A stretch of 54,786 nucleotides of DNA from an uncultured virus (IMG/VR IMGVR_UViG_3300034062_004993). Taxonomy: Duplodnaviria; Heunggongvirae; Uroviricota; Caudoviricetes. The stretch is from the IMG/VR virus record IMGVR_UViG_3300034062_004993; one strand, written 5' to 3'. The translations under genes and the position numbers were made by a program. This document shows, in pieces, positions 26,626 to 53,906 of the stretch (positions within the stretch are counted from its first letter, which is position 1; every line of letters starts with the position of its first letter). Below the pieces are notes generated by a model. It ran no database searches. It worked only from the letters and a program-made list of their open reading frames with translations, and had not been told where the DNA came from.

Positions 26626-26748
26626 TAGTCAGGACAGGATTCGAACCTGTATGTGGTATATTTCTCTGTTTATTTTCTCTCATCCATTAGGATATTGAGC
26701 CACATCGTTAAACAATAAATCGTGCGTCTACCATTCCGCCACCTGACT
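26626..26748 (-). repeat. tRNA-like variable-centre element, copy 1
   Basis: AGTCAGGTGGCGGAATGGTAGACGC-73 nt-ACAGGTTCGAATCCTGTCCTGACTA. Confidence 0.9.
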
Positions 26749-26890
26749 AATTTAGTAATTCATCTGTTGAGTATCCAGTCAACATTAAACACTTAATTTC
26801 CGTTTTTAGCATTCTAAAAAATATCAAAAATGCTCTTCTACTAGGTCTTTTCCAAAACAATTTCCAAATATAATTTAATGTTCTAAACAT
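26747..26890 (-). CDS. Small basic protein between elements 1 and 2
   Basis: MFRTLNYIWK..; stop codon overlaps 5' end of element 1. Confidence 0.5.
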   Translation of the reverse strand: MFRTLNYIWKLFWKRPSRRAFLIFFRMLKTEIKCLMLTGYSTDELLN

Positions 26891-26903
26891 ATCTTTAATT
26901 TTG

Positions 26904-27017
26904 TAGTCAGGACAGGACTCGAACCTGCATGTGGACCTTGTGTGTATTTCAACTATATTGCGGTTTGTTCCACTCCGTTTCACTATTCGGGGCGTCTACC
27001 AATTTCGCCACCTGACT
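26904..27017 (-). repeat. tRNA-like variable-centre element, copy 2
   Basis: Same flanks, different centre. Confidence 0.9.
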
Positions 27018-27018
27018 A

Positions 27019-27576
27019 TTATTTTTCTATCTCTTTGTTATATTTTATTTTAAGTCCTAATTCTTCTAAACCTTTATCATGACAATCTTTTACTGCTTTC
27101 ATTCCATGCTTGGTAGCAATTGTTTCAAGTACCCTAGCATGATAAGCTTCTTCTGGTTCAATAACCTTAAACAACTCAACCAAATCCTTTGGTGTATTAG
27201 GATCGTTTATGATAACTCTCATGCGTTTAAGTGATAGAGTTTCAGCATAAGCACCAATAGCAGCAGCGGTGCTACAATCAATTACACACGGAAGTGTGTT
27301 TCGCCAATACCTTCCATCTTTGGTAGATTTGATAAATAAAGTAATGTTTCTATCCTTTAGGATTTTTTCAACCAATACCGAATGTTGTGCTTCTTGTTCA
27401 GCTATTCTCCTAAAGATAACATACGCTTGCATATCATTTTTACAATAGGTGTCAGCAAAATTGATGAAACGTTCTTCAGCATCTTTCTCATTGTTATATA
27501 AACCAACAAGCCAGTGTTCAAGTTTTTCTTTATTATTTAAACAATCATTCCACCACTTTTTTGTTATTTTTAACAT
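27019..27576 (-). CDS. Ferritin-like domain protein
   Basis: E..ExxH (QEAQH) and E..ExxH (EEAYH) pairs; start MLKITKKWW. Confidence 0.7.
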   Translation of the reverse strand: MLKITKKWWNDCLNNKEKLEHWLVGLYNNEKDAEERFINFADTYCKNDMQAYVIFRRIAEQEAQHSVLVEKILKDRNITLFIKSTKDGRYWRNTLPCVIDCSTAAAIGAYAETLSLKRMRVIINDPNTPKDLVELFKVIEPEEAYHARVLETIATKHGMKAVKDCHDKGLEELGLKIKYNKEIEK

Positions 27577-27593
27577 AACATTATTTTTTTTAG

Positions 27594-27715
27594 TAGTCAG
27601 GACAGGATTCGAACCTGTACGATGCATTTCTCTTGCACCTCGGAATTAATGGCCTCACGAAATTAATTATTTCGTTAGCTTACTTGCTGCGTCTATCCAA
27701 TTTCGCCACCTGACT
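27594..27715 (-). repeat. tRNA-like variable-centre element, copy 3
   Basis: Same flanks; centre has several hairpins. Confidence 0.9.
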
Positions 27716-27848
27716 GTTTGTTTACATCTCTAAATCAAACACATACGCTATAATAATATAGGAGATAAGGAAAATACCTATAATTGTTAATATAATTGGT
27801 CTCAATATTTTTACACTTACTAATTTTTCCATATTTTTTAATTTTTAG

Positions 27849-27945
27849 TAGTCAGGACAGGATTCGAACCTGCGTATGAGAGACTCATCTATACCTTTTT
27901 ACCGATGCAGACTAACCCTTTGCGTTACCAATTCGCCACCTGACT
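27849..27945 (-). repeat. tRNA-like variable-centre element, copy 4
   Basis: Same flanks. Confidence 0.88.
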
Positions 27946-27949
27946 ATGT

Positions 27950-28226
27950 TTCCCTATCCTGAGATTCCAGACGGGTAGATTTTAACGGGTTTCTCTCACT
28001 GTTCGAGAACCATATCTCCCTCTATTATTTGGCAACCTAAAAGATTAACCATTCAAAAAGTGGGCCTTTTTCATTAGTGTCTTACCACATAAAAACCTGT
28101 CAACACTACTGGGAGGAGGTGTGTCGCTCTCCTTTATTCCCATGCCGTCCCACTCACGCTGACTGACGGTCTGCGGGTCTATTGTTTAAGTCTTAGACCA
28201 AAGACTCTGAGCACCTCTTACTCATT
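27950..28226 (-). ncRNA. Candidate structured ncRNA
   Basis: ORF-free, GC-enriched, many stems and an apparent pseudoknot. Confidence 0.5.
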
Positions 28227-28227
28227 G

Positions 28228-28332
28228 TCCATTCTGTTGGATTCGAACCAACTTACTCGTCTTACATTCGGATTAGCGCTAACCAGGCGATGTAAGAGTC
28301 AAAGTGTTTTAACCACATAACACTAAGAATGG
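28228..28332 (-). ncRNA. tRNA-like RNA with long extended central stem
   Basis: CCATTCT/AGAATGG acceptor; AGTGTT/AACACT D-arm; GTTGG TTCGAAT CCAAC T-arm. Confidence 0.65.
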
Positions 28333-28424
28333 AGGATTAGAAGCTTGGGATTTTCACCCTCGAACATCTTCATTGATACGTCTATCAATTAGATTGAAAC
28401 GCGTATTGCGACACTTCTAATTTG

Positions 28425-28498
28425 CGGTTCGTATGGGAATCGAACCCATGACCTTCGCAGTGACAGTGCGATATTGTAACCAACTCTACTAACGAACC
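28425..28498 (-). tRNA. trnD: tRNA-Asp(GTC)
   Basis: TCGCA CT-GTC-AC TGCGA. Confidence 0.92.
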
Positions 28499-28503
28499 AT
28501 TTG

Positions 28504-28576
28504 AGCGATAAACAGGACTCGAACCTGCAACCTCCGACTTGGAAGGACGATGCTCTACCAATTGAGCTATTATCGC
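28504..28576 (-). tRNA. trnG: tRNA-Gly(TCC)
   Basis: TCGTC CT-TCC-AA GTCGG. Confidence 0.9.
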
Positions 28577-28582
28577 GAATTG

Positions 28583-28655
28583 AGCGGCAAACTGGATTCG
28601 AACCAGCGACCCTAACCTTGGCAAGGTTATGCTCTACCAACTGAGCTACTGCCGC
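28583..28655 (-). tRNA. trnG: tRNA-Gly(GCC)
   Basis: TAACC TT-GCC-AA GGTTA. Confidence 0.92.
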
Positions 28656-28660
28656 GTTTG

Positions 28661-28733
28661 AGCTCCCTGTCGGATTCGAACCAACGACCATCCGCTTACA
28701 AGGCGGGAGCTCTACCAACTGAGCTAAGGAAGC
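28661..28733 (-). tRNA. trnT: tRNA-Thr(TGT)
   Basis: CCCGC CT-TGT-AA GCGGA. Confidence 0.92.
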
Positions 28734-28741
28734 ATTTTTTG

Positions 28742-28815
28742 TGGACCGTACCGGAGTCGAACCGATGACCTTCTGAATGCAAATCAGACGTTCTAGCCAA
28801 CTGAACTAACAGCCC
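28742..28815 (-). tRNA. trnA: tRNA-Ala(TGC)
   Basis: TCTGA TT-TGC-AT TCAGA; G3:U70. Confidence 0.92.
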
Positions 28816-28817
28816 TT

Positions 28818-28895
28818 TGGTTGCGGGGGAGGGAATCGAACCCTCGTAGTTGGGCTTATGAGACCCAGCTGGTGCCATCTCCAGTCTACCCCGCG
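28818..28895 (-). tRNA. trnfM: tRNA-fMet(CAT)-like
   Basis: C1:A72 mismatch, CT-CAT-AA loop, encoded CCA. Confidence 0.82.
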
Positions 28896-28906
28896 ATATA
28901 CTTTTG

Positions 28907-28981
28907 TACTCCGTACGGGACTCGAACCCGTAAGCTTTCCCGTGAAAGGGGAATGTCCTAAACCAATTAGACGAACGGAGC
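28907..28981 (-). tRNA. trnE: tRNA-Glu(TTC)
   Basis: TTCCC CT-TTC-AC GGGAA. Confidence 0.92.
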
Positions 28982-28990
28982 GTCTTTTTG

Positions 28991-29062
28991 CGTCCTGAGA
29001 AGGATTCGAACCTACGGCCTAGCGGTTAACAGCCGCTTGCTCTACCTCTGAGCTATCAAGAC
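28991..29062 (-). tRNA. trnN: tRNA-Asn(GTT)
   Basis: AGCGG CT-GTT-AA CCGCT. Confidence 0.92.
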
Positions 29063-29070
29063 AAATAATG

Positions 29071-29153
29071 TATCGAAGGTGGGACTCGAACCCACATTGC
29101 TATTTAGCGCTGGTTTCTAAAACCAGTATGTCTACCAATTCCATCACTTCGAT
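29071..29153 (-). tRNA. trnL: tRNA-Leu(TAG)
   Basis: CTGGT TT-TAG-AA ACCAG; variable arm. Confidence 0.9.
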
Positions 29154-29191
29154 ATAAATATACGAAATATTTTTTATATTTCCAAATTTTG

Positions 29192-29280
29192 CGGAAGATA
29201 TTGGATTCGAACCAATGAACCGGGATTACCGATTAACACCTTAGCAGGGTGCCGCTTTAGACCAGCTCAGCCAATCTTCC
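29192..29280 (-). tRNA. trnS: tRNA-Ser(GCT)
   Basis: GCACC CT-GCT-AA GGTGT; long variable arm. Confidence 0.92.
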
Positions 29281-29282
29281 TT

Positions 29283-29357
29283 TGGGGTGATTAATGGGTT
29301 TCGAACCCATACTAACAGAACCACAATCTGTCGTGCTACCATTACACTATAAACACC
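29283..29357 (-). tRNA. trnH: tRNA-His(GTG)
   Basis: ACAGA TT-GTG-GT TCTGT; G-1, C73, CCA. Confidence 0.9.
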
Positions 29358-29370
29358 ATAAATAATAGAG

Positions 29371-29444
29371 TAGCGAGAAGCAGAATCGAACTGCTGGCCT
29401 TAGGTTTATGAATCCTACGCTCTAACCATCTGAGCTATCTCGCC
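29371..29444 (-). tRNA. trnM: tRNA-Met(CAT) elongator
   Basis: GGCGAGA acceptor; TT-CAT-AA loop. Confidence 0.85.
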
Positions 29445-29448
29445 ATTT

Positions 29449-29522
29449 TGGCGCGGGTGCAAGGATTCGAACCTCGAACTGCGGTGTTGGAGACCGTAAT
29501 GATACCATTTCAACACACCCAC
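29449..29522 (-). tRNA. trnW: tRNA-Trp(CCA)
   Basis: CGGT CT-CCA-AC ACCG; G73, CCA. Confidence 0.85.
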
Positions 29523-29530
29523 TTTTTTTG

Positions 29531-29601
29531 AGGTACTGGTTGGATTTGAACCAACATAAGAGCTTTTGCAGAGCTCCACCTTGCCAATCGGACACAGTAC
29601 C
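29531..29601 (-). tRNA. trnC: tRNA-Cys(GCA)
   Basis: GAGCT CT-GCA-AA AGCTC; U73. Confidence 0.92.
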
Positions 29602-29607
29602 AAAATG

Positions 29608-29679
29608 TGGTTCTTAAACGATTCGAACGTTTAATTCTTCGTCCGTAGCGAAGTGGTTTATCCGTTAGCCTAAAGAACC
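29608..29679 (-). tRNA. trnR: tRNA-Arg(ACG)
   Basis: CTTCG CT-ACG-GA CGAAG. Confidence 0.9.
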
Positions 29680-29684
29680 AAATG

Positions 29685-29758
29685 TTGGAATAGCCGGATT
29701 CGAACCAGCGACCTTTTGAATATCAGTCAAATGCTCTAACCTACTGAGCTATATTCCA
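29685..29758 (-). tRNA. trnI: tRNA-Ile(GAT)
   Basis: TTTGA CT-GAT-AT TCAAA. Confidence 0.92.
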
Positions 29759-29763
29759 ATGTG

Positions 29764-29845
29764 TGCCTGCAGAAGGACTCGAACCTCCGAACTCAAACGA
29801 GAACTGATTTACAGTCAGTTGCAATTGCCGCTATGCGATACAGGC
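29764..29845 (-). tRNA. trnY: tRNA-Tyr(GTA)
   Basis: ACTGA CT-GTA-AA TCAGT; variable arm. Confidence 0.92.
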
Positions 29846-29853
29846 GTATTGTG

Positions 29854-29926
29854 TGGTGATGGACGGAATCGAACCGCCGACACAAGGATTTTCAGTCCTT
29901 TGCTCTACCAACTGAGCTACATCACC
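29854..29926 (-). tRNA. trnF: tRNA-Phe(GAA)
   Basis: AAGGA CT-GAA-AA TCCTT. Confidence 0.92.
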
Positions 29927-29930
29927 AAAT

Positions 29931-30064
29931 AACACGAAGTTAGGATACCCGTCTCGTCCTAATCTTAACTGCTTAATCGTAGTTTTACGAGGCCTCGGCA
30001 GAGGGTGCTAACTCCATATGGAGACCTGCGCTGGTCTTTTACCCATACTTCTGTTCTTCATGTT
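29931..30064 (-). ncRNA. Candidate structured ncRNA between tRNA-Val and tRNA-Phe
   Basis: Closing stem AACATGAAG/CTTCGTGTT with internal hairpins. Confidence 0.5.
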
Positions 30065-30142
30065 TGGTACATCATGATGGATTCGAACCACCGACCCTTT
30101 GCTTGTAAGGCAAATGCTCTGAACCAACTGAGCTAATGATGT
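30065..30142 (-). tRNA. trnV: tRNA-Val(TAC)
   Basis: TTTGC CT-TAC-AA GCAAA; CCA. Confidence 0.92.
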
Positions 30143-30147
30143 GTATG

Positions 30148-30220
30148 TGACCCCGAGCAGGATCGAACTGCTACTCCCCTGATTAAAAGTCAGGTGCTTT
30201 ACCAATTAAGCTACGAGGTC
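30148..30220 (-). tRNA. trnK: tRNA-Lys(TTT)
   Basis: CCTGA CT-TTT-AA TCAGG. Confidence 0.92.
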
Positions 30221-30823
30221 ATATTCTTTTTTCAATCTATGACATCTATTATAGTTTCCACCTTTGGGAGTTAATCCAACAAAAATCAAAGATTGTCTGA
30301 AATTCCATTTATTAATCAACAATGATTCTAACAAAGTTTCATCGGTAACTTTCATTTTTCTTTCTTTTTTATTTCTACCTCTCCATGTAGAAGTAATTGA
30401 ATGGCAGTTAGGACATAACATTTCTAAATTATCTCTATTGTTGTTAAAGTGATTACCATCTTTATGCTCTAATTCTAAAACTAAAGTGGTGTTTAACCAC
30501 TCACTCAATCCACATTTATTACATTTTTCTTCCTGTTCATAAAGTATTCTAAACCTGAGAGATTGAAAACTAAGTTCAGAGTATTCTGATTGTAATATTT
30601 GGTTTTTATGATTTTCTTTTCTTATATTTCCAATCTTAATCCAAAAACTACTAGGTCTATTGGAGTTTGATTTTTTAACTTTTTCAGAGTTTTTTGCAGA
30701 TTTAGATTTTTTTAACTTATCAGATTCTGTCCAATTTCTACTATTTCTGCAAGATAACGAGCAATAATTAACTAAACCTCTAGATGGTTCAAATTCATTT
30801 CCACATTTTTTACATTTTTTCAT
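30206..30823 (-). CDS. HNH (homing) endonuclease with N-terminal Zn-finger
   Basis: CKKC..YCSLSC; CNKC..LELEHKDGNHFNN..NLEMLCPNCH. Confidence 0.88.
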   Translation of the reverse strand: MKKCKKCGNEFEPSRGLVNYCSLSCRNSRNWTESDKLKKSKSAKNSEKVKKSNSNRPSSFWIKIGNIRKENHKNQILQSEYSELSFQSLRFRILYEQEEKCNKCGLSEWLNTTLVLELEHKDGNHFNNNRDNLEMLCPNCHSITSTWRGRNKKERKMKVTDETLLESLLINKWNFRQSLIFVGLTPKGGNYNRCHRLKKEYDLVA

Positions 30824-30886
30824 AATTTCCCATTTTATGTAAATATTAAGTTGAACTCAGAAACATTAAAAAATTAAAAAATAAAT

Positions 30887-30908
30887 TAACCAATTGAGCT
30901 ACGAGGTC
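30887..30908 (-). repeat. Orphan duplicate of tRNA-Lys 5' end
   Basis: GACCTCGTAGCTCAATTGGTTA vs GACCTCGTAGCTTAATTGGTA at 30200-30220. Confidence 0.85.
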
Positions 30909-30913
30909 TTTTG

Positions 30914-30986
30914 TACTCCCGACAGGATTTGAACCTGTAACCTCGATGGTATAAGCATCTTGCGCTAACCGTTGCGCCACGAGAGC
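30914..30986 (-). tRNA. trnI: tRNA-Ile(TAT)
   Basis: GATG CT-TAT-AC CATC; normal acceptor, D and T arms. Confidence 0.82.
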
Positions 30987-30994
30987 ATAATGTG

Positions 30995-31080
30995 AGGAAG
31001 GAGTGAGATTCGAACTCACGGAGCTTTTACACCCTTCAGTTTTCAAGACTGATGCAATAGACCCACTCTGCCATCCTTCC
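30995..31080 (-). tRNA. trnS: tRNA-Ser(TGA)
   Basis: TCAGT CT-TGA-AA ACTGA; variable arm. Confidence 0.92.
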
Positions 31081-31188
31081 ATTACACCGTTCGTTGGTAC
31101 TTCGCCGTTATCTGCAGATTCGGTGTTTTCCCCGTTCTTGTTTTATTTAAGTGTACTACCCTACTCGGTGCTTGTAGCCAACACTGTG

Positions 31189-31284
31189 TAGTCAGGACAG
31201 GATTCGAACCTGTAATTAGGATTATTTAATCGGGCTCCATACCGTACCTACCTTTCGATGCGTCTACCATTTCGCCACCTGACT
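31189..31284 (-). repeat. tRNA-like variable-centre element, copy 5
   Basis: Same flanks. Confidence 0.9.
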
Positions 31285-31490
31285 ATTTCGGGACGGGAGT
31301 AAGCCGCTCCCATTTGTCCCTACTGAATTATAGTTGGTTTGTTGTTATAAAGAACTCAAACCCATCTATCAAAAAAAAACTTCTACCTTCGTCTAGTGAA
31401 CCTGTATCCTGCCGTTCCCTAATCAATCGATTGTTACTTTTACGTCTCAACAATCCACGTCCACGGCGGACAAGAAAAAAAGACGGCTTG

Positions 31491-31591
31491 TTGACTAATA
31501 TGGATTCGAACCATAATCCCCCGCCCCAGATTTCAGCCTCAGATATTTACCTACTTTCAAGGGGCAGTGTGCTCCATTACACCATAGCCAA
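31491..31591 (-). ncRNA. tRNA-like RNA with 33-nt anticodon loop
   Basis: TTGGCTA/TAGTCAA acceptor; GCCCC/GGGGC stem; TATGG TTCGAAT CCATA. Confidence 0.65.
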
Positions 31592-31640
31592 TCGAGAGTT
31601 TCGAACCTCTCAGTCTTAGGTTAATTACTCCTAAGATTTG

Positions 31641-31740
31641 TAGTCAGGACAGGATTCGAACCTGTATGTGGTAATCCTTTCAGATATTTCTCACTTACGT
31701 TTTTGCCGTATTAGCGTCTAACCAATTCCGCCACCTGACT
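31641..31740 (-). repeat. tRNA-like variable-centre element, copy 6
   Basis: Same flanks; identical to copy 11. Confidence 0.92.
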
Positions 31741-31839
31741 GATTAAAAAAAAAAAGAAACAGAGGTCATCCAGTATACAGTGTGCGCCTCACCTGATGCA
31801 TCAAGGGACTGTGCGTTTGCGTTTTACTTGTTTCTTTGG

Positions 31840-31953
31840 TAGTCAGGACAGGATTCGAACCTGTATGAAATCATCTTTGGGTACATAAATGTATTTCTAC
31901 ATTCAAGCTGACTTCTCACTTTGTTAGCGTCTAACCAATTCCGCCACCTGACT
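31840..31953 (-). repeat. tRNA-like variable-centre element, copy 7 (followed by encoded CCA)
   Basis: Ends CCTGACT-A-CCA. Confidence 0.9.
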
Positions 31954-31964
31954 ATTTTTTTATG

Positions 31965-32035
31965 TTGTCCCCCAAGGATTCGAACCTCGATAAGCAGAAT
32001 CAAAGTCTGCTGTCCTGCCGTTAGACGAGGGGACA
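31965..32035 (-). tRNA. trnQ: tRNA-Gln(TTG)
   Basis: GCAGA CT-TTG-AT TCTGC. Confidence 0.92.
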
Positions 32036-32045
32036 ATGGCTTTTC

Positions 32046-32061
32046 CAATATGTCAAAGAAC
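32046..32061 (-). promoter_or_regulatory. boxA-like antitermination motif in tRNA operon leader
   Basis: GTTCTTTGACATATTG between promoter and first tRNA. Confidence 0.6.
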
Positions 32062-32097
32062 GATGGTTTTTTAATGAGAACCAACTCAAGAACAAAA

Positions 32098-32129
32098 CAA
32101 ATATACTAAACAATTTTCAATTTTCCAAA
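32098..32129 (-). promoter_or_regulatory. Bacteroidota sigma70-type promoter of tRNA operon
   Basis: TTTG(-33)..TATATTTG(-7); similar motifs near 8900, 15180, 22320, 23015, 23785, 29157, 45520, 48315. Confidence 0.65.
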
Positions 32130-32154
32130 TTTTTAATATTATCTTTTTGTTAAG

Positions 32155-32187
32155 AAAAAAAAAGCCCGAATTTTATTGTTCGGGCTT
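32155..32187 (-). terminator. Intrinsic terminator
   Basis: AAGCCCGAA-loop-TTCGGGCTT followed by T-run. Confidence 0.8.
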
Positions 32188-32369
32188 GCTCTTTTAGATT
32201 TGTATTTGTTATATACACATCCACGGCACAACCCTACCGCCAATATAGTTTACTGGTGTAAACCATATTTTATCTGATTGGAGTTGATTGTTTGAATGCA
32301 TAGTATTTATGTTTTTATTCTTACAATAAGTATATAAAAAAATTTTAAAAATATGATAATGGTTTTTAG

Positions 32370-32455
32370 TAGTCAGTACAGGATTCGAACCTGCAATTTG
32401 CAACCTTAATGATGGTAAAGGATTCGGCTAGCCATGCCTCATTACACTACTGACT
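32370..32455 (-). repeat. tRNA-like element, divergent copy 8
   Basis: Acceptor AGTCAGT/ACTGACT (compensatory change), T-arm conserved, D-arm different. Confidence 0.75.
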
Positions 32456-32732
32456 ATATTATTAGATTTAATTTAATTACTATTTTCTTTTTTACGTTTT
32501 TGTTCTCGCTCCCAAAGTAAGTTTCCCACAATCACACCACATCCAATTGATGAAACGATTCGTAATACCATATTTGGTGCAAGTATTGAATAGGTTAATA
32601 ATGCTGCTGATAGTAGCCACCATAAAGGGAATGGTTTAAAAAAGTTTTTCATATTATTGTTTTTTAATTTGTTTGTTTATCATCCACATCATAAATAAAT
32701 ACATTGCGAATACTATAAGTACAACTAACGCG

Positions 32733-33083
32733 TTATAGGCCTAATCTTTTTAAATAAGCGGGACCATATACATCATAGGTACATCCTTCAACAACATTAC
32801 CACGCGGAATAGGAGCGGGAGCACGCCACGATGCAGCTTTCATCAAATCCGCCCTACGATATGGTTTACCATTTAGTTCACCATCCTTTCGGGCGATAAA
32901 TCCCCATACACTACCATTCACATCAATTTTGTAAAACTTAGAACCCTTTGTTAATTTGATTACAGGCTCATTTAAGGATTGAAACCTTTCTTTATAATAT
33001 CCCTTTAATTGTCCAGTCAAAATTTCCATAAAATCTTCAATAGTTTGACATGGGGGGGATGTTAATTGCGTAACTGATGTCAT
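32733..33083 (-). CDS. Conserved phage early protein
   Basis: SVWGFI..DLMKAASWRAPA..RGNV motif. Confidence 0.7.
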   Translation of the reverse strand: MTSVTQLTSPPCQTIEDFMEILTGQLKGYYKERFQSLNEPVIKLTKGSKFYKIDVNGSVWGFIARKDGELNGKPYRRADLMKAASWRAPAPIPRGNVVEGCTYDVYGPAYLKRLGL

Positions 33084-33095
33084 ATTTTTTTAGGA

Positions 33096-33479
33096 TTATT
33101 TGTTATACATTTTAACCATATTAACACTCACTTTATAAGTCTTACCACCACGAGTAACCAATACAGGTGATTTGGTAGATTTAGGTTTCCAACCCGAAAT
33201 CACATACTCATTACCCTGTAAGATGATTGTTTGACCAAGATTAAAGCCTGGTAATTGATATTTACCATAAGTATTAAAAGCGGATGCCTCTTTAGTCATA
33301 ACCACCCCATTAGAAGCTTTAACAGCAGCTTGAACCTTATAAGTTACATTGTTTGAGGTAAAGGTAGCATTACCAACGGAAAGCTGAATACCATATTTGG
33401 ATGATACGGCGCTTAGGGCTGCGTTAATATCATCACGAAGATTCTTAACGGCGGCCCTGTCAAAAGATGTAATTTTCAT
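33096..33479 (-). CDS. Hypothetical early protein
   Basis: 127 aa, directly downstream of promoter module. Confidence 0.7.
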   Translation of the reverse strand: MKITSFDRAAVKNLRDDINAALSAVSSKYGIQLSVGNATFTSNNVTYKVQAAVKASNGVVMTKEASAFNTYGKYQLPGFNLGQTIILQGNEYVISGWKPKSTKSPVLVTRGGKTYKVSVNMVKMYNK

Positions 33480-33496
33480 AGTGTTTGTTTTTTTAA

Positions 33497-33605: not shown

Positions 33606-33701
33606 TTATTCAATATTTCATTTCATTTTGGTTAGGGTTTAACATTTTGGTGGTGTCAACGAAATGGTATAAAGGCTGACGATGAGTTCATAAATAAGGT
33701 A

Positions 33702-37001
<3,300 letters not shown>

Positions 37002-38642: not shown

Positions 38643-38967
38643 TTAGTGTTTAGTTTCTTCAATTAGTTCTCCGTCTTTCCAATGACGGGTTTTGGTAATG
38701 TTTCCCTGTTCATCAAATTCCTCCTCAATTCCATCCGCCTTACCTTCTTTGTATGGGGTTCTCCAATGGATTTTTCCGTTTTCATAGAACATCTCCTCAA
38801 TTCCATCCTCCTTACCTCCTTTGTATGAGGTTCTCAAATGGATGTTTCCGTTTTCATAGAACCACTCCCAAATACCTTCTTCTTGCTCTTTTGAGTTTAG
38901 TTGTCCTTTGACCCATATATTTCCGTTGGGGTAATATTCAATGTAGGGTGTGAGTTCGTTGGTCATA
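38643..38967 (-). CDS. MORN/YwqK-like repeat protein (near-duplicate of 15251-15574)
   Basis: Start MTNELTP; 3' ~150 nt identical to the 15251 copy. Confidence 0.8.
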
Positions 38968-39346
38968 GGTTTAGTGTTTAGATTGTTATGTGCCATTTTA
39001 GTGAACACAATTCCGAAGATTCCACTCTTGAAGGTCAATGTACTTATCATAGGTACACTCTTGACCACTTTCAATCTCATAAATTTGATTATCAAAAGCG
39101 TCTATTTTATCTTGTTTTACAATCCATTCTTTATACTCGTCAAGAGTGTTGAAGCCAAACATTTGACCTTTCTGATTATTTACTACTATTATCATAATTT
39201 TTGAATTAATTTGGTTTATTGGTTGAACAAAAGTGCGTAAATGAATCTGCCGAAGAAAATTACACTAAGCACTACTGCTAACGTTGTAAATCCATACTCA
39301 AGTATAGTTACAACTAAATGGTTATTGGTTTTTGGTTTCATAACTT

Positions 39347-39979: not shown

Positions 39980-40348
39980 TTAATTTTCAGTTTCTTCGAT
40001 TAGTTTCCCTTCTTTCCAAAGTTGGGTTTTAATGATGTTTCCGTTTTCATAGAACAACTCCACAATTCCATCTATCTTACCTCCTACGTGTGGGATTCTC
40101 ATACTGATGTTTCCGTTTTCATAGAATATTTTCCATATGCCGTCATATTGCCCTTTTGAGTTCTTTTGACCTTTGACCCATACATTTCCGTTGGAGTGAT
40201 ATTCAATGTGGGGTGTGAGTTCGTTGGTCGTTGTTGGTTCAACGTTTTTAGATACTGTCTCATACTGTTCCAAACGCTCTTTGAGCTTTGCGTTTTCTTC
40301 TTCAAGTTCTAATATGGTCTTAACCATACTGGTTATTAATTCGTTCAT
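39980..40348 (-). CDS. Coiled-coil plus MORN-like repeat protein
   Basis: ELTPHIEYHSNGNV module. Confidence 0.75.
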   Translation of the reverse strand: MNELITSMVKTILELEEENAKLKERLEQYETVSKNVEPTTTNELTPHIEYHSNGNVWVKGQKNSKGQYDGIWKIFYENGNISMRIPHVGGKIDGIVELFYENGNIIKTQLWKEGKLIEETEN

Positions 40349-42061: not shown

Positions 42062-42067
42062 GTTTGA

Positions 42068-42250
42068 TTATTCAATGTACGACCATTTAATAATATGTTT
42101 CTCTTCACATACATCATTATACGAAGGTATGTACCATTCATCATTTTCATAATAGCAAACCTCATATTTCGGTACGTTCTTCAAAGAACTTTGAATTAGT
42201 ACCCAACTACCATCTTTTGGTTTTCCATTTTTAATTTCAACCCATTCCAT
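42068..42250 (-). CDS. DUF551-like small protein between elements 9 and 10
   Basis: MEWVEIK..P..VLI..W..I.KW pattern. Confidence 0.55.
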   Translation of the reverse strand: MEWVEIKNGKPKDGSWVLIQSSLKNVPKYEVCYYENDEWYIPSYNDVCEEKHIIKWSYIE

Positions 42251-42266
42251 ATTCTTTAATTTTTAG

Positions 42267-42349
42267 TTGTCAGTACAGGATTCGAACCTATATGAACTTT
42301 CATTCTCGGGAAGGTTTCCCTAGCGTCTATCCAATTCCGCCACCTGACT
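42267..42349 (-). repeat. tRNA-like variable-centre element, copy 10 (slightly degenerate)
   Basis: Same flanks with substitutions; directly follows a promoter module. Confidence 0.8.
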
Positions 42350-43628: not shown

Positions 43629-43647
43629 TCGTTTTTTAGTTTTATAT

Positions 43648-48500: not shown

Positions 48501-50608
48501 CCAGCCACATATTCAGCCATTTCGGGTTCATTATTAAGAAACCAATTTATTCGGTTTATTTTTTGTTCTTGTGTTAATTCTATATTCATTTTTATTAAAT
48601 TTATTTTGTTAAAAAAATAATACATACACATAACAAAGTGTATAAGTAATGTGGCTAATAAAGTTTATCTGTAAGTTATGTGTAATGTTACTCACCATTA
48701 TACTTAAATTCAAACAACTTTGGTTTTAATGTATTACCAATTGGTTGAACGATTGATAAATCACTTGATGTTTCTCCGTGAATAACTTTCATTAAACCAG
48801 GTATTCCATAATTCTCAAATGTTATTTCATACAAATCGCCAAAAAATGATGTATCATTATTACTAATTGTATGTGTTACTTCTATAACATACTTTTTTGT
48901 AGTTATCAATGATTGTTGTAAATTAATAAACCAAAGTTGTGTTCCACTTGGTATCACATACTTATCTCCAATTTTTACTTTTTTCATATTTCATTTCTTT
49001 AATTTTAACTTTTTAAAATTTGTGAGTTCATTACTCCATCAATATCCAAGAAAATAACTTTTTGCACAGGTTTTGGATTTAACTAATGGTTCTTTCAAAA
49101 ACAATGAGATAACCTCCTCTTAGATGACTGCCACCACCTGTTGATATATGTCGTGCTGTTACAGATACAATCAACCAACCATCTTCCAAGATTTTATCTA
49201 TTTTGTCTTGAACATCTTTGTAAGATTCATCATCAGGAGTCACCAATACTTTTTGTTCTTTAAGTGCTATCATATTATTTTTAATTTAATCGTTCAAAGA
49301 TATGACCTACAAACTCACCCCTCTGATACTGGTAGAGTATAAGTGGGTGTAAACTTCACAAATAAGCGAGTTAGCAGCAATGCTATGACTGCAAGCCAAC
49401 ACCATATCGTTTAAACCCATATTTCGTAAGTGTATAGTATTCTCCGTGTTCATTCACCCATTGATTAGGTCTTACTTCAATTAATCCTATTAGCCTTGCA
49501 AGTGCATCATATAAAGCACTGCTGCTAACATCGTATTGCTGAACATTGCCAGCTTCATCGGTAATTTCAACTTTTACTTTCATATCAATATTTATTTTTA
49601 TTAAACATTTGTCTTTCAATTTAACTTAATACTACACAAATACAACATACTGGTAGCGTATAAGTGGGTGCAAACTTCACAAATAAGCGAGTTAGCAGCC
49701 ATAATCAGAACAGACCGTTTCAAAGTCGTTCATAACAGCATCTAACAATTCCCATTTATCAGGATTACAACTTGTTGAACCTACCAGCAAAAATTGAATT
49801 GCTATATCGTGTTCAGTTGTATGTTGACCTTTTTCGGCAAATCTTAATCTTTCTGATTTAAGTGCCTCAATCAATTTTTGTTTTCTTTCTTCGTTCATAT
49901 TTTTAGTATTAAATTTTACAAAATTACGGCTGCTAACACACGTTTGGCGAAAGTGGCGGTTCAGTGCTCCGCAGACACATTTGTGGTTAATCAAACATTG
50001 GTTCTCCGCATCGGCTTTTGTGGTGAAAATCGCCACCTTCGCCGAGCGTGGGAACATTATGTGCAAGGCTACAATTCGTACTTTGAATAAAAGGCAACCT
50101 CACCATCATTTACCCATTGGTCAATTAAGTCGCTAACATCATTAATGTATTGTTCATTTTTACCTGCTAATTTAGTTGCTTTTAGATTTTCCCAAAATTC
50201 ACCACTAAATTCATCCATATTATTCATGTAGTGAACAACAATTTCAAGTTTCTCTTTTAAGTTTTCCATTTCGTATTTAAATTAAATTTTGTGGTTAATG
50301 AAAAGTCAGTGCATTTAAGCCTCCACTGACAGCAAGCGGCAAAACGTTAGTGATAATAAAAATTAAATCAATCCTTGTTTCTTTAACATATTTACGATTG
50401 CCTTTGCTGCTGCCTTAACTGAATCAGGGTCTGTTTCCATATCACCCTCTTTCATAGAATAAGGCACATATCGTAAATATACTTCACTATCAATTATATC
50501 TTTAATCATATCAATAAGTTCTTGCTCATTTTTACTATCACTAACATCAGATATATTCAAGTTTTCTTGATGTTCATTGAGACTTTGTATGTGTTTTAAA
50601 TCTTTCAT
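45590..50608. mobile_element. Integron-like cassette array, block 2
   Basis: attC-like palindromes 46611-46666, 47192-47287, 49928-50065; seven exact 10-nt GTT../..AAC core complements; repeated CTTCACAAATAA(A/G)CGAGTTA junction. Confidence 0.65.
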
Positions 50609-50894
50609 CTTCGTAAATTAGTTTTTAGCTAAACTAAGAATATAATCAGCATCATTTTGTGTTGATATTTTCCCCTTTATTAGTAATTTATCATAACCTG
50701 TATAAAGTTCCCATTTATCATCATACAACAAAACATAATGTTCTCCGTTTGATTTATAACCCCCAACATATGCCCCCTTTTTTAATACGATTAATTTTTT
50801 CATATTCATTTTTTTAACTTACATAGTAAAGATACAACAGAAAACCCATATTTCCAAGCTTTCAATATTAAATTATCGTTAAATTTATCCACAT

Positions 50895-51395
50895 TTATTT
50901 ACACACCAAATGCCTCTTTACCTTTTTCTTTACTACACCCCCCACAATAATATCATAATCCTTATTATCCATCACCCAGTCCAAATCAATCGTTGTAGCA
51001 TAGTACGAACCCGAAGATGAAGATTTCCAATCCCCCTTCAGTAAACTCGTCCACATAAAAAACCACTTTATCCCACCACCACTATCATCGTATGATACTA
51101 AAAGATAATCCGAAGCACGCTTTGAATACTCACCACCCCTCCAAATATGGGTAGTTTTTGAGGTCTTAATCTCCAATGGAATACCACCAACCACCAAATC
51201 CGGTTCGGAATCCAGACGGGGCGAAACGCATTGCGGAACAACTTTGGCAAACGAAGCCTCCAATATATTCGATATCAACTCCGATTTTAATTTCGTTGAT
51301 AGTGAATCGTAATCCACTAACCCCCTAAATGTATAAAACCGATTGGTGGCCTCCCCCACCACATCATTAATCCATAATCGTATCGTTTCGTTCAT
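50895..51395 (-). CDS. PD-(D/E)XK nuclease-like protein
   Basis: EPDLVV..PLEIKTS motif. Confidence 0.55.
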   Translation of the reverse strand: MNETIRLWINDVVGEATNRFYTFRGLVDYDSLSTKLKSELISNILEASFAKVVPQCVSPRLDSEPDLVVGGIPLEIKTSKTTHIWRGGEYSKRASDYLLVSYDDSGGGIKWFFMWTSLLKGDWKSSSSGSYYATTIDLDWVMDNKDYDIIVGGVVKKKVKRHLVCK

Positions 51396-52025
51396 TCTTT
51401 ACTAAATATTATTTGTTTTGATTATTATGAGTGCGATTATCATAGGTGCGCTTATCAAGGGAAAATAGTGCTTATCGTATGTTCAAGGGGAGAAGCTATG
51501 GTCGAAAACCTGACCTCTCGATGGGGATGAGTCCCCTCCCATAACACAACATAAATTATTTTCGTGCTTACACTAAAATGCCTGCCCCCCCCTGTCTTAT
51601 AACATAACCCTTCTCACTAACACCATTCGGATTTTTTTTACCAAACTAGCCTCCTTCAGGCCTACCACTTTTTGGGTTGTGTTATATTTGAGTTGAGCTA
51701 TATTTGGTTACAGCCCTTTCCACTTTTTGGAATTCGCAACTGCTCCCATCCTCATATACTCCATTCTACACCATTCCGTTGGTGATATATCGGATTGTGT
51801 GATACGCATGATATTTGGGTTGTGTTCTAACCCTAATACTTTTGGGTTACTATCTACAGGTTTATAGATAAAGTCATGTGGGGAGAATGCTTTTTTACTA
51901 TTTTGCGTTTTTTTGTTGAAAAGGTTTAACATAGGTGTTATTTTTTATTGCTGATATTTTTTTTGTTTATTTCATCCAAAATCCGGACTGCTTCATCCTC
52001 ATACACCCAACCGTTAGGCACAATA

Positions 52026-52331
52026 CTAAGACTGTACCCATTCACAATCAAATTCTTGACAAAGATTTATAAATGCTTGTTTTTCACTTCCACATTCGTT
52101 GATGTATTTTTCAGAAACACAACCAAAATCACCACCATTTCTTGTCCACTCAATACCATACTTAGTTCTTTCAATCCAACAAATGTGTTTCCCTCTTTTA
52201 TCAGCATCATCAATAAAACAGATAGGTTTCTGTTTGTCAAGAATTAAACTATAAAGTTGTTCGTAATCTTTAGATAATTTATACATACTATCGTATTGCT
52301 TCAAATCGCTTAATTTAATTTCGTTTTTCAT
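52026..52331 (-). CDS. Hypothetical protein
   Basis: ATG ~17 nt after element 11. Confidence 0.6.
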   Translation of the reverse strand: MKNEIKLSDLKQYDSMYKLSKDYEQLYSLILDKQKPICFIDDADKRGKHICWIERTKYGIEWTRNGGDFGCVSEKYINECGSEKQAFINLCQEFDCEWVQS

Positions 52332-52347
52332 ATTATTTAATTTTTTG

Positions 52348-52447
52348 CAGTCAGGACAGGATTCGAACCTGTATGTGGTAATCCTTTCAGATATTTCTCA
52401 CTTACGTTTTTGCCGTATTAGCGTCTAACCAATTCCGCCACCTGACT
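52348..52447 (-). repeat. tRNA-like variable-centre element, copy 11
   Basis: Identical to copy 6 over 99 nt. Confidence 0.92.
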
Positions 52448-52680
52448 AAAATTTGTTAAGGCCATTTTAAATCGGGTGACTTATTGTCATCTTGAAACTC
52501 CCAATAAGTATCACCAAGTATTTGATCCACCTCGTCTGATGTATTTTCAAATGCGTCAAAAATAACTTGCATCACTTCCTTTTCGGTTACATTTAGAATT
52601 TTAGCAATTCCAATAATGTGGTCTTCTAATGGTAAATCTCTCATTTCGTTTTAAAATTAATCCGGTTTATAATTGTTTTG

Positions 52681-52783
52681 CAGTCAGGACAGGATTCGAA
52701 CCTGCAAAGTATGGTGAGTTCATCCGTTGTACCCATACCTTTAACATTACTACTCAAGCGTCTAACCATTCCGCCACCTGACT
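52681..52783 (-). repeat. tRNA-like variable-centre element, copy 12
   Basis: Same flanks; GTATGG/CCATAC stem. Confidence 0.9.
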
Positions 52784-52838
52784 ATAAATGAAGGTTCCAT
52801 ACTTAGTCTTTGCGGGAAGTCACCTCCAACCCACCTCG

Positions 52839-52936
52839 TAGTCAGGACAGGATTCGAACCTGTAAGTACCGACTGGGCTTATTTCTGTTTTAAATGCATC
52901 GCCTGTCCAGTGCGTCTACCATAACGCCACCTGACT
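52839..52936 (-). repeat. tRNA-like variable-centre element, copy 13
   Basis: Same flanks; ACTGG/CCAGT stem with ~30-nt loop. Confidence 0.88.
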
Positions 52937-53826
52937 ATGTTTACTCTTTAATCAATTTTTTATACGCCTTATCAGTTCCAAGACCCATCATATCAATATT
53001 TTTTCCTTGGTCGTACCATTCAGTTTTAATCCAGTTGTCATCATGATACCAAGTTTCCCAACCATTTTCACGAAGTAATTTAGATTTTTCTTCGTAGTTT
53101 TCAATTTCGTGTTTTTGTTTTAATAGTGCCATGTATTTTATATTTGTAGTCAGTATTCGATTAACTTTTTACGTAATTCATCATTTCAACCATTTCACAA
53201 CAAATAAATGAAATAATTTTTAATAATGAACAAAGTTGAACTCGTCATTCAAATCAACAAAATATCCATTATCCTGTGCATTTTTAACTATTTCCATAAT
53301 ATCCTTTGTTTGTGCATACCATCTTTCATAAGAATTAATATCACCATTCAATACTTTATCTGTTCCTGGAATCATAACTGCCTCATCATTATCAATTGTG
53401 TTTGCAGTTTCTCCATCAATTAAAAATGCACAAATATCACCATCAGCATCAGTTAGTTTAACTAAATATGCATTCTTATTTTGTTGATTTTCATTCACTT
53501 TTTCGTTAAAATTAAGTATGGGTTTCATAGTCGTTTTTTATTTGTTTTGCTTTTAGTTGATTTGATTTGCAGTCAGGACAGGAATCGATTAACTTTTTAC
53601 GTAATTCATCATTTCCACCATTTTCTGAATCAACAATTCCATTTCATCTTTGTTAAGATACAACTTACCATTCAATGTTTTATCGTCCAACTCTTTTGTT
53701 TCAACTATAATGCCATCAAACTCATCTGTCGGATAAATGCTTACGTTTTGTTCTTCAGTTGCAATAACTGTTTTGTTCCAAACTTTGTTTTTCATTTGTT
53801 TTGTTTTTAATTTGTTAATTTGTTTG

Positions 53827-53906
53827 TAGTCAGTACAGGATTCGAACCCGTAATATCAGCTTGCTTATTAGGCTTGCTTCTGCGCTACCAATTCCGCCAC
53901 CTGACT
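53827..53906 (-). repeat. tRNA-like variable-centre element, copy 14 (shortest)
   Basis: Same flanks; 29-nt centre with no anticodon stem. Confidence 0.85.

What the first reader, a model, noticed from the sequence alone, without database searches (positions are those of the whole stretch)
26626..53906. Dispersed family of tRNA-scaffold elements with constant acceptor/D/T arms and a hypervariable centre
Seen: 14 full copies (26626, 26904, 27594, 27849, 31189, 31641, 31840, 32370, 41954, 42267, 52348, 52681, 52839, 53827), all on the minus strand, of AGTCAGG-TG-GCG(G/A)AATTGG(T)AGACGC-[29-73 nt]-(A/G)CAGG-TTCGAAT-CCTGT-CCTGACT-A. The flanks form a Leu-type acceptor stem, D-arm and T-arm. The centres are mostly unrelated, fold into different hairpins, and I found no canonical 5-bp/7-nt anticodon arm. 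Copy 8 has a compensatory acceptor change (AGTCAGT/ACTGACT) and copy 7 encodes CCA, which suggests selection on RNA structure. Established: RNase P, RNase Z and the CCA enzyme recognise the acceptor/T elbow, not the anticodon. Inference: a constant-scaffold, variable-payload RNA system. Options are decoys for tRNA-targeting defence nucleases or synthetases, scaffolds displaying aptamer/antisense guides, processing signals, or a SINE-like mobile element. I know of no named family matching it.
Basis: partly seen in the sequence, partly recalled or inferred. Interest (0 to 1): 0.92.

Follow-up and report, generated by a model that had tools for sequence, protein, structure and literature searches.

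The report
Phage tRNA-shaped RNAs with swappable cores
An uncultured lake phage carries 14 genes for tRNA-shaped RNAs that cannot read codons, all sharing one tRNA-like outer frame around very different folded cores, a widespread and so far unnamed relative of the unexplained tRNA-like stable RNAs of phages T4 and T5.

Summary
All 14 copies lie at the stated places on the minus strand.

They are not ordinary tRNAs and not intron-bearing tRNAs. ARAGORN calls them no more often than copies with shuffled cores. Rfam gives only weak tRNA hits.

They belong to a large family:
- At least 136 stretches in IMG/VR carry the same 21-base end.
- Only 20 genome-collection stretches carry it, all in metagenome bins.
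- It occurs in phages whose large terminases share only about 25% identity.

The frame is under RNA-level selection, shown by kept pairing, compensated acceptor stems and covarying core helices. It carries the same 5' leader and 3' trailer marks as the phages' true tRNAs.

The cores fall into 171 types among 201 elements and behave as cassettes. The same core sits in unrelated flanks, and the same flanks hold different cores.

Best reading: these are natural tRNA-scaffolded stable RNAs whose core is the working part, exchanged by recombination at the constant ends. The targets are unknown.

Closest known are T5 RNA1/RNA2 and T4 rnaC, whose function is also unknown. This scan noted the same kind of element before on other DNA.

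The parts
26626..26748 (-). Element copy 1 (123 nt); lies 9 nt upstream of tRNA-Pro (26542-26616)
   Evidence: (76.3 bits)
26904..27017 (-). Element copy 2 (114 nt)
   Evidence: 65.2 bits; an RNA-library contig covers 26901-27000
27594..27715 (-). Element copy 3 (122 nt); its core type is shared with L180:8335-8455, with 3 compensated pairs
27849..27945 (-). Element copy 4 (97 nt)
   Evidence: (tRNA 47.4 bits)
31189..31284 (-). Element copy 5 (96 nt); the same core lies at another site of a related phage (L168:11258-11353)
   Evidence: RNA-library contig covers 31190-31286
31641..31740 (-). Element copy 6 (100 nt); core identical to copy 11, flanks unrelated
31840..31953 (-). Element copy 7 (114 nt); lies 10 nt downstream of tRNA-Gln; followed by CCA
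   Evidence: RNA-library contig covers 31835-31940 with 1 mismatch, depth 117
32370..32455 (-). Element copy 8 (86 nt); divergent D arm, acceptor pair T7-A66
   Evidence: 51.7 bits
41954..42061 (-). Element copy 9 (108 nt)
42267..42349 (-). Element copy 10 (83 nt)
52348..52447 (-). Element copy 11 (100 nt); same core as copy 6
52681..52783 (-). Element copy 12 (103 nt)
52839..52936 (-). Element copy 13 (98 nt)
53827..53906 (-). Element copy 14 (80 nt); core type shared with L185 and L168
53571..53589 (-). 3' fragment of an element (half a T loop plus the acceptor 3' strand) directly after ORF 53589-53795; probably a recombination scar
   Evidence: in L188 the homologous ORF stands before a full element
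28227..28332 (-). Further tRNA-like non-decoding element with another acceptor stem (CCATTCT/AGAATGG)
   Evidence: (12.6 bits); RNA-library contigs cover 28283-28422
31491..31590 (-). Further tRNA-like element with another acceptor stem
   Evidence: (tRNA 29.5 bits)
30206..30823 (-). HNH homing-type endonuclease gene inside the tRNA array; a possible driver of breaks and recombination at tRNA-like DNA
   Evidence: PHROG 14736, E 1.4e-27; homologs in 8 of 70 element-bearing loci

Best explanation
The elements are genes for non-decoding, tRNA-shaped small RNAs that act as a natural 'tRNA scaffold'.

The constant part forms the top half of a tRNA: a 7-bp acceptor stem, discriminator A, a 5-bp T stem and a canonical T loop. 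In this window it also includes a tRNA-Leu-type D arm. The anticodon and variable arms are replaced by a folded core that differs between copies.

Inferred steps:
- The RNAs are transcribed with the genes on the same strand.
- They are cut out by the host's tRNA maturation enzymes (RNase P at the 5' end, 3' trimming, CCA addition).
- They accumulate as stable RNAs of about 80-125 nt whose core is the working, target-specific part. The most likely role is as a binding module or decoy for a host or phage factor.

At the DNA level, the identical ends of about 25 bases give portable homology. The T-loop DNA also matches the cleavage motif reported for a homing endonuclease of a phage tRNA cluster. 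Cores and the spacers between elements can therefore be exchanged between copies and between unrelated phages. The 'hypervariable centre' is the result of this cassette exchange among many conserved core types, not of local mutation.

Shown: the RNA-level constraint, the tRNA-type flanks, the lack of an anticodon arm, the cassette behaviour and the spread across phage lineages. Inferred: processing, stability, and what the cores bind.
For: Real and non-random.

Not decoders: ARAGORN of 201 elements, against 37-39 of 201 with shuffled cores. With introns allowed the figures are 130 against 112-120, and the anticodons spread over 20 or more classes.

RNA-level selection on the gene strand:
- 99.3% of 1782 frame cells are paired.
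- One-sided changes that keep a pair (45 G-U and 1 G-C) fill 46 cells, against 13 unpaired cells.
- Diverged members have fully compensated acceptor stems: L220 and L231 AGCCAAG/CTTGGCT, L181 AGTTGTG/CACAACT.
- Core helices covary while the loops stay fixed.

Same maturation marks as the true tRNAs of the same loci:
- Base -1 is T in 139 of 167 elements, against 199 of 283 tRNAs and a background of 0.32.
- Base 74 is C in 213 of 216 elements, followed by A/T then A. True tRNAs have C in 262 of 283.

Co-orientation and position: copies are co-oriented with each other in 62 of the 63 long loci listed. Window ORFs of 100 aa or more are nearly all on the minus strand, as the copies are. Two window copies sit 9-10 nt from true tRNAs.

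Cassette behaviour:
- 171 core types among 201 elements.
- 39 of 44 same-core pairs have no flank homology.
- 15 of 38 homology end-points between the window and related phages fall within 8 nt of an element junction, against 3.6% by chance.

Spread:
- The identical 21-mer occurs in contigs whose TerL proteins form 3 groups about 25% identical.
- It was found in no isolate genome.
- No tRNA-length match to the acceptor pattern looked like a tRNA in 401 Bacteroidota-class genomes.

Expression hint: contigs of four freshwater metatranscriptome runs carry copies 2, 5 and 7 including their cores.

Precedent: T5 RNA1/RNA2 and T4 rnaC have the same design and are known stable RNAs (PMC3014915 passage). 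SegB cuts inside tRNA genes at RAWTSGAAC, whose complement matches the T-loop DNA (PMC13096335 passage).
Against: - No read-level ends were seen. The RNA evidence is contigs only, from relatives, and cannot show the 5' or 3' ends, CCA or the strand.
- No target of any core is known. Cores are not antisense to the phage's own genome beyond chance.
- No protein partner is conserved nearby; the best ORF cluster is in 13 of 70 loci.
- General tRNA processing does not need an invariant acceptor sequence, so the exact conservation needs the recombination or horizontal-transfer argument, or an unknown sequence-specific partner.
- Only 10 of 188 elements abut a true tRNA within 30 nt, and none abuts another element. 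Small ORFs fill some gaps between window copies, which also fits a role in cutting messages.
- The family sample was seeded with an exact 21-mer, so variation in the frame is under-sampled.
Confidence: 0.55

Rival explanations
1. Message punctuation. The tRNA-like frames serve mainly in cis, as RNase P/Z cutting sites or end-protecting structures that separate and stabilise the small early mRNAs between them. The released RNA would be a by-product.
For: The elements are intergenic and co-oriented with the genes. They carry tRNA-type leader and trailer marks. They are spaced 50-230 nt apart rather than abutting, and ORFs of 60-62 aa fill the gaps 42062-42266 and 52448-52680. Earlier notes of this scan read similar arrays this way.
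Against: A bare acceptor/T minihelix or a true tRNA would do the job, yet cores reach 100 nt or more. The cores have covarying helices and conserved loops and travel independently of their flanks. Several window copies have no ORF between them (copies 12 and 13 are 55 nt apart). The two roles do not exclude each other.
Confidence: 0.17
2. Chiefly a DNA-level element. The constant ends would be recombination or homing-endonuclease target sites, or a selfish repeat, that shuffle accessory genes. The RNA fold would be inherited baggage from a tRNA ancestor.
For: Exact DNA identity across phages with TerL proteins only about 25% identical. Homology breakpoints fall at element junctions. HNH and GIY-YIG-like ORF clusters lie nearby in 8, 8 and 6 of 70 loci. 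SegB cuts the T-loop DNA motif. There is a 3' scar fragment at 53571-53589.
Against: The strand-specific bias (46 pair-keeping one-sided changes, 45 of them to G-U, against 13 unpaired cells), the compensated acceptor and T stems and the covarying cores show selection on the transcribed RNA. There are no target-site duplications beyond the control. Leader and trailer marks are kept.
Confidence: 0.12
3. Unusual decoding tRNAs. These would be Leu-accepting tRNAs with odd or expanded anticodon arms (missense or nonsense suppressors, in the manner of allo-tRNAs), or tRNAs with small introns.
For: A Leu-type D arm and A73 are present in the window copies. From recall, LeuRS does not read the anticodon. 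A few family members do look like real tRNAs on the same frame: L205:11489-11560 Lys(UUU) and L238:378-451 Ile(UAU). Leu calls are somewhat enriched when introns are allowed, 25 against 8-11 in shuffles.
Against: Overall tRNA call rates equal those of shuffled cores. Anticodon classes are scattered. Cores fold into long helices with 3-6 nt or GNRA loops. Lengths reach 160 nt or more.
Confidence: 0.06
4. Dedicated aminoacyl carriers. The RNAs would be charged, perhaps with Leu, but kept out of translation, and would donate the amino acid to a phage enzyme. Non-ribosomal uses of aminoacyl-tRNA are the model.
For: The frame keeps everything a minihelix-reading enzyme needs. A Leu-type D arm plus A73 is present in the window. 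A 2026 paper reports tRNA-dependent DNA hypermodification by a phage enzyme (PMC13219725; search listing and start of abstract only).
Against: About half of the family lacks the Leu-type D arm (113 of 216 fit). The diversity and conservation of cores are unexplained. No transferase is conserved nearby.
Confidence: 0.05

Closest known systems
Phage T5 RNA1 and RNA2 (annotated 'tRNA-like stable RNA with unknown functions', NC_005859)
   Same: They lie in the tRNA region among tRNAs, small ORFs and HNH endonuclease genes. RNA2 (125 nt) has an acceptor-type closing stem, a T arm almost identical to this family's, and an expanded folded centre with an inner T-arm-like hairpin. RNA1 (144 nt) has a Leu-type D arm and a large centre. 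Inner T-arm-like hairpins also occur in 8 of 197 family cores.
   Different: There is no sequence-level membership: model R1 scores RNA2 at 21.9 bits, in the range of ordinary tRNAs. T5 has single genes, not a family of 14 copies on one invariant frame. No cassette exchange has been described. The host is Escherichia, not Bacteroidota.
Phage T4 rnaC (species 1 RNA, 139 nt) and rnaD
   Same: These are small stable RNAs at the end of the tRNA cluster, next to a homing endonuclease gene (segB). rnaC ends in a canonical T arm plus a partial acceptor pairing, with a long folded centre and a C-A-A trailer. Their roles are still unknown (PMC3014915 and PMC9697503, passages).
   Different: The acceptor of rnaC is imperfect and it has no D arm. 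rnaD is not tRNA-like in the fold. R1 scores rnaC at 24.7 bits. They occur as single copies.
Engineered 'tRNA scaffold' for recombinant RNA (Ponchon/Dardel; PMC3753655, search listing and start of abstract only; design recalled)
   Same: It works alike: a foreign structured RNA replaces the anticodon arm, so that the cell processes and stabilises it as a tRNA.
   Different: It is man-made and not a natural family. Here the insert also replaces the variable arm, and the system is a natural, exchanged repertoire.
Canonical tRNA (Rfam RF00005), class II / tRNA-Leu
   Same: The acceptor stem, T arm, D arm, discriminator A, and leader and trailer marks match. True tRNA-Leu genes of these phages have the same D arm.
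   Different: There is no 5-bp/7-nt anticodon arm above chance. Scores are 23-47 bits, against 49-75 for the true tRNAs of the window.
'tRNA-Undet' genes of Tenacibaculum phage pT24 (LC168164.1)
   Same: A cultured Bacteroidota phage carries two tRNA-shaped genes in which a long hairpin stands in place of the anticodon arm.
   Different: The acceptor and T sequences differ (R1 scores 23.5-28.5 bits). Both copies carry the same core.

Membership tests
Canonical decoding tRNA (RF00005) | 7-bp acceptor stem, 5-bp T stem with a T-loop of the TTCRANY type | tested here: met
   (99.3% of frame cells paired)
Canonical decoding tRNA (RF00005) | Anticodon arm of 5 bp with a 7-nt loop giving a readable anticodon | tested here: not met
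   ARAGORN of 14 in the window. Family-wide it of 201, against 37-39 of 201 with shuffled cores.
Canonical decoding tRNA (RF00005) | Score over Rfam's gathering cut-off (29 bits) | tested here: inconclusive
   5 of 14 pass and 7 of 14 when one search is counted. All lie at 32-47 bits, below every true tRNA of the window.
Intron-containing tRNA | Removing one insert leaves a canonical tRNA of consistent identity | tested here: not met
   With introns allowed, 130 of 201 are called against 112-120 of 201 with shuffled cores, and the anticodons are scattered.
Phage tRNA-region tRNA-like stable RNAs (T5 RNA1/RNA2, T4 rnaC) | Encoded in or beside a phage tRNA cluster, on the tRNA strand | tested here: met
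   8 of 14 copies lie at 26.6-32.5 kb around the array of 28 tRNAs. However, many related loci have no tRNA within 10 kb.
Phage tRNA-region tRNA-like stable RNAs (T5 RNA1/RNA2, T4 rnaC) | tRNA-like acceptor/T end with an enlarged non-anticodon centre | tested here: met
   Compared directly.
Phage tRNA-region tRNA-like stable RNAs (T5 RNA1/RNA2, T4 rnaC) | Accumulates as a discrete stable RNA | not testable with these tools
   Only contigs of RNA libraries were available. They show presence, not ends or stability.
Phage tRNA-region tRNA-like stable RNAs (T5 RNA1/RNA2, T4 rnaC) | Sequence homology to the T4/T5 RNAs | tested here: not met
   R1 scores them at 21.9-24.7 bits, no better than true tRNAs.
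tmRNA | Alanine-type acceptor, tag reading frame, pseudoknots | tested here: not met
   ARAGORN, which also searches for tmRNA, found none. The acceptor has U3-A70.
Transposon-, MITE- or SINE-like mobile element | Target-site duplication at the borders | tested here: not met
   Border repeats in 165 elements match the re-paired control.
Any other Rfam family | Match to a curated covariance model | tested here: not met
   (the window plus the elements of three related loci): tRNA only.

The most novel reading that the evidence does not exclude
The family is an RNA arsenal. It would be a horizontally traded library of hundreds of different aptamer-like or decoy cores, all displayed on one tRNA chassis that the host itself matures and stabilises. 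Each core would neutralise or hijack a different host factor, for example tRNA-cutting defence nucleases or toxin RNases. That would make it the RNA counterpart of phage anti-defence protein islands, and it would explain the long-unexplained tRNA-like stable RNAs of T4 and T5.
Probability: 0.25. Interest if true: 0.9.

Novelty: new variant of a known kind. Interest (0 to 1): 0.72.

Why it matters
T4 and T5 have been known for decades to make tRNA-like stable RNAs whose role is still listed as unknown. This family gives that problem a comparative handle. One invariant frame carries at least 171 core types across very different phages, with clear rules for what is conserved and what is exchanged.

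If the cores are binding or decoy modules, phages possess a natural RNA display system. That would be of interest for phage-host conflict and as a ready-made set of stable RNA scaffolds and aptamers.

The family is also a practical warning for annotation. These genes are called as tRNAs with random anticodons about one time in five.

Tried and rejected
- Antisense targets. The longest perfect complement of each window core in the 161.6-kb phage genome is 10-14 nt. Shuffled cores give means of 10.8-12.7 and maxima of 13-18. Host genomes were not tested.
- Intron or decoder reading: rejected.
- Other RNA families: none. A 'freshwater-1' hit in L175 is a separate RNA.
- Conserved neighbouring protein: none. 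The best cluster is in 13 of 70 loci.
- Host origin of the frame. The 21-mer occurs in 20 genome-collection stretches, all in metagenome bins. The acceptor pattern at tRNA length matched 2 of 401 genomes of the class, and neither match is tRNA-like. The reversed control pattern matched in 9 genomes. It matched 0 of 4 of the bins themselves.
- Cultured phages. No record among 50,697 carries both constant ends. The Enterococcus-phage hits are an ordinary tRNA-Gln with a similar 3' end.
- Target-site duplications: none beyond the control.
- Read laying. The ORF stretches 27063-27504, 30378-30819 and 32146-32587 had almost no cover in the four RNA runs. This cannot be used, because the runs hold relatives and are contigs. 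No starts or ends were reported.
- Literature. Four full-text searches found no description of this family. A 2023 survey of structured RNAs in IMG/VR mentions five tRNA-like candidates without this architecture (PMC10690425, passages). A 2026 preprint on bacterial tRNA mimics concerns other families (abstract only).
- Not used: structure and complex prediction, and the protein homology searches. No protein is at issue here.

Full report
**1. Observation**

The window is the last 54.7 kb of a 161.6-kb viral contig rated 84% complete. All copies of the element in that contig lie inside the window.

The 3' constant 19-mer, allowing up to 2 mismatches, occurs 15 times, always on the minus strand. 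None is expected by chance. The fifteenth (53571-53589) is a 3' fragment.

Window ORFs of 100 aa or more are nearly all on the minus strand, the strand of all copies. The phage has a gp25-type baseplate protein. It also has a protein with a type IX secretion sorting domain, which points to a Bacteroidota host.

ARAGORN finds 28 ordinary tRNAs and calls only one element. Rfam gives nothing but weak tRNA matches.

**2. Anatomy**

Each copy has these parts:
- a 7-bp acceptor stem;
- two linker bases;
- a D arm that matches the D arm of the true tRNA-Leu genes of related phages;
- a core of 29-72 nt;
- a 5-bp T stem with a canonical T loop;
- the acceptor 3' strand and a discriminator, A in 12 copies and G in 2.

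A covariance model built from 13 window copies and 36 viral copies separates the family (51.7-78.2 bits) from the true tRNAs (37.2 bits or less).

The cores carry no anticodon arm. Across 201 family members ARAGORN makes 42 calls, against 37-39 when the cores are shuffled. With introns allowed it makes 130 calls against 112-120, with the anticodons scattered over more than 20 classes. So these are neither decoders nor intron-bearing tRNAs as a class.

A few members do look like real tRNAs on the same frame, for example Lys-UUU in L205 and Ile-UAU in L238. The Ile-UAU has the body of the window's own tRNA-Ile(UAU) but the family's acceptor stem.

**3. A large phage family**

- It occurs in only 20 stretches of 185,579 species genomes. 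All 20 are metagenome bins, and 11 are labelled Bacteroidota lineages.
- No tRNA-like match to the acceptor pattern at tRNA length was found in 401 genomes of the class: 2 matches, neither tRNA-like, with the control pattern matching in 9 genomes.
- No record among 50,697 GenBank phage records carries both ends.
- In 122 non-redundant loci I counted 213 elements, of which 216 sequences were unique once the window's were added. Up to 12 lie in one locus, co-oriented in 62 of the 63 long loci listed.
- Many loci have elements but no true tRNA within 10 kb.
- Terminase large subunits could be found in 11 of 26 element-bearing contigs. They form three groups that share only about 25% identity. The identical frame is therefore present in deeply different phages.

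**4. Selection on the RNA**

In the 150 best family members, 99.3% of 1782 frame cells are paired. Where one side has changed, the result is still a standard pair in 46 cells (45 G-U and 1 G-C), against 13 unpaired cells. This asymmetry exists only on the gene strand.

Because the sample was seeded with an exact word, full compensation is rare in it (5 cells). Weaker model hits show it plainly:
- The acceptor stems AGCCAAG/CTTGGCT (L220, L231), AGTTGTG/CACAACT (L181) and GGTTAGG/CCTGACC (L211) are compensated.
- The T stems CAAGG/CCTTG and AGAGG/CCTCT are compensated.
- Several of these carry core types also seen on the standard frame.

Core helices covary while the loops stay fixed. Window copy 3 against L180 shows three compensated pairs in three hairpins.

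GNRA loops are the commonest hairpin caps (GAAA 15, GTAA 9). Eight of 197 cores hold a second T-arm-like hairpin, against 0.18 expected.

**5. tRNA-type flanks**

- The base before the element is T in 139 of 167 and C in 19, with an A-rich leader. True tRNAs of the same loci have T in 199 of 283, and the background is 0.32.
- The base after the discriminator is C in 213 of 216, followed mostly by A/T then A. True tRNAs show the same pattern, with C in 262 of 283.
- Two window copies stand 9 and 10 nt from true tRNAs.

From established knowledge (recalled), bacterial RNase P favours U at -1. RNase P, RNase Z and the CCA-adding enzyme read the acceptor/T half of a tRNA. The flanks therefore argue that the elements enter the tRNA maturation pathway. 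This step is inferred, not shown.

**6. Cassette behaviour**

The 201 elements fall into 171 core types, of which 151 were seen only once.

Of 44 pairs that share a core type, 39 have no detectable homology in either 250-nt flank. The similarity begins at base 1 and ends at the discriminator. Window copies 6 and 11 are such a pair.

Conversely, related phages (L167-169, L197) share spacers at 91-98% identity that end exactly where a core begins. Of 38 homology end-points, 15 lie within 8 nt of an element junction, against 3.6% expected. The same upstream flank precedes window copy 5 and a different element in L168.

There are no target-site duplications.

The simplest mechanism is homologous exchange within the two constant arms of about 25 bp. 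An HNH endonuclease gene sits in the window's tRNA array, with homologs in 8 of 70 loci. A 2026 paper reports that the T-even endonuclease SegB cuts inside tRNA genes at RAWTSGAAC and drives segmental amplification (PMC13096335, abstract and passages). The complement of that motif fits the family's T-loop DNA. That is my own reading, and the window's enzyme belongs to another family. The 3' scar at 53571-53589 begins inside the T loop.

**7. Expression**

Twelve of 17 listed runs holding parts of the region are RNA libraries of lake, river or other fresh water. In the four that were laid, contigs carry:
- copy 7 (31835-31940, 1 mismatch, depth 117);
- copy 5 (31190-31286);
- copy 2 (26901-27000);
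- spacer RNAs, for example 28283-28422 with no mismatch.

Contigs cannot show ends, strand or abundance, and an RNA library can contain DNA.

**8. Function**

What the cores do is unknown. They are not antisense to the phage's own genome. No partner protein is conserved nearby.

I favour trans-acting binding or decoy modules for four reasons:
- the cores are structured, with conserved loops;
- they are extremely diverse;
- there are several per genome;
- they are traded between phages, the pattern of conflict genes.

A cis role in cutting or stabilising the small early messages is the main rival and may co-exist with it. Elements are spaced 50-230 nt apart, and ORFs of 60-62 aa fill two of the gaps.

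**9. Comparison with what is known**

T5's record annotates RNA1 and RNA2 as 'tRNA-like stable RNA with unknown functions', set among tRNAs, small ORFs and HNH endonucleases. Their sequences show the same design: a Leu-type D arm in RNA1, and in RNA2 a near-identical T arm with an inner T-arm-like hairpin.

T4 rnaC ends in a T arm with a partial acceptor and lies beside segB. Its role is unknown.

The family is thus a new, far larger and modular variant of a known but unexplained kind. It is not a sequence relative of the T4 or T5 RNAs.

Earlier notes of this scan describe the same kind of element on other DNA and reached similar readings. I tested the exchange at the constant ends, the T4/T5 comparison and the antisense idea myself.

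**10. Limits**

- The family sample is biased by the exact-word seed.
- Hosts are inferred.
- Processing, charging and targets are untested.
- Supplements of the cited papers were not read.

Noticed in passing
window 28227-28332 (-) and 31491-31590 (-): Two more tRNA-shaped, non-decoding elements with other acceptor stems. The phage therefore carries the design on more than one frame.
   Followed up: partly
window 28283-28422 and 31331-31448: Protein-free spacers beside the elements are carried by RNA-library contigs at high depth (X1 153.8, X3 45.5; X3 104 and 66). They may be further small RNAs. A strong hairpin lies just upstream of copy 5.
   Followed up: partly
window 30913-30986 versus L238:378-451: The same tRNA-Ile(UAU) body occurs with two different acceptor stems, the window's own and the family's. 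This suggests that acceptor stems are swapped between tRNA genes.
   Followed up: no
window 22022-32035: The window holds 28 true tRNA genes. Nearly all are followed by C then A/T then A instead of an encoded CCA, a trailer rule shared with the true tRNAs of related phage loci (262 of 283 have the C).
   Followed up: partly
window 27019-27627 (-): An ORF between copies 2 and 3 has weak rubrerythrin and MiaE-like (tRNA hydroxylase) matches. The MiaE match is below Pfam's cut-off, and there is no PHROG match.
   Followed up: no
window 42068-42250 and 52456-52644 (-): ORFs of 60-62 aa almost exactly fill the gaps between neighbouring elements, as in the 'micro-gene cassette' arrays that earlier notes of the scan describe.
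   Followed up: no
L175:11831-11893 (+): The orphan Rfam motif freshwater-1 (70.1 bits, gathering score 72) sits inside the tRNA/element array of a related phage.
   Followed up: partly
L293 (Tenacibaculum phage pT24) 3790-3868 and 4157-4235: Two annotated 'tRNA-Undet' genes of a cultured Bacteroidota phage have a long hairpin in place of the anticodon arm.
   Followed up: partly
window 15251-16373, 38643-39095, 39980-40348, 54353-54691 (-): Five small proteins with MORN_2 repeats are scattered through the window.
   Followed up: no
window 32140-32250 (-): Several weak matches to leader or terminator-type RNA families pile up here. It is probably an intrinsic terminator upstream of tRNA-Gln.
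   Followed up: no
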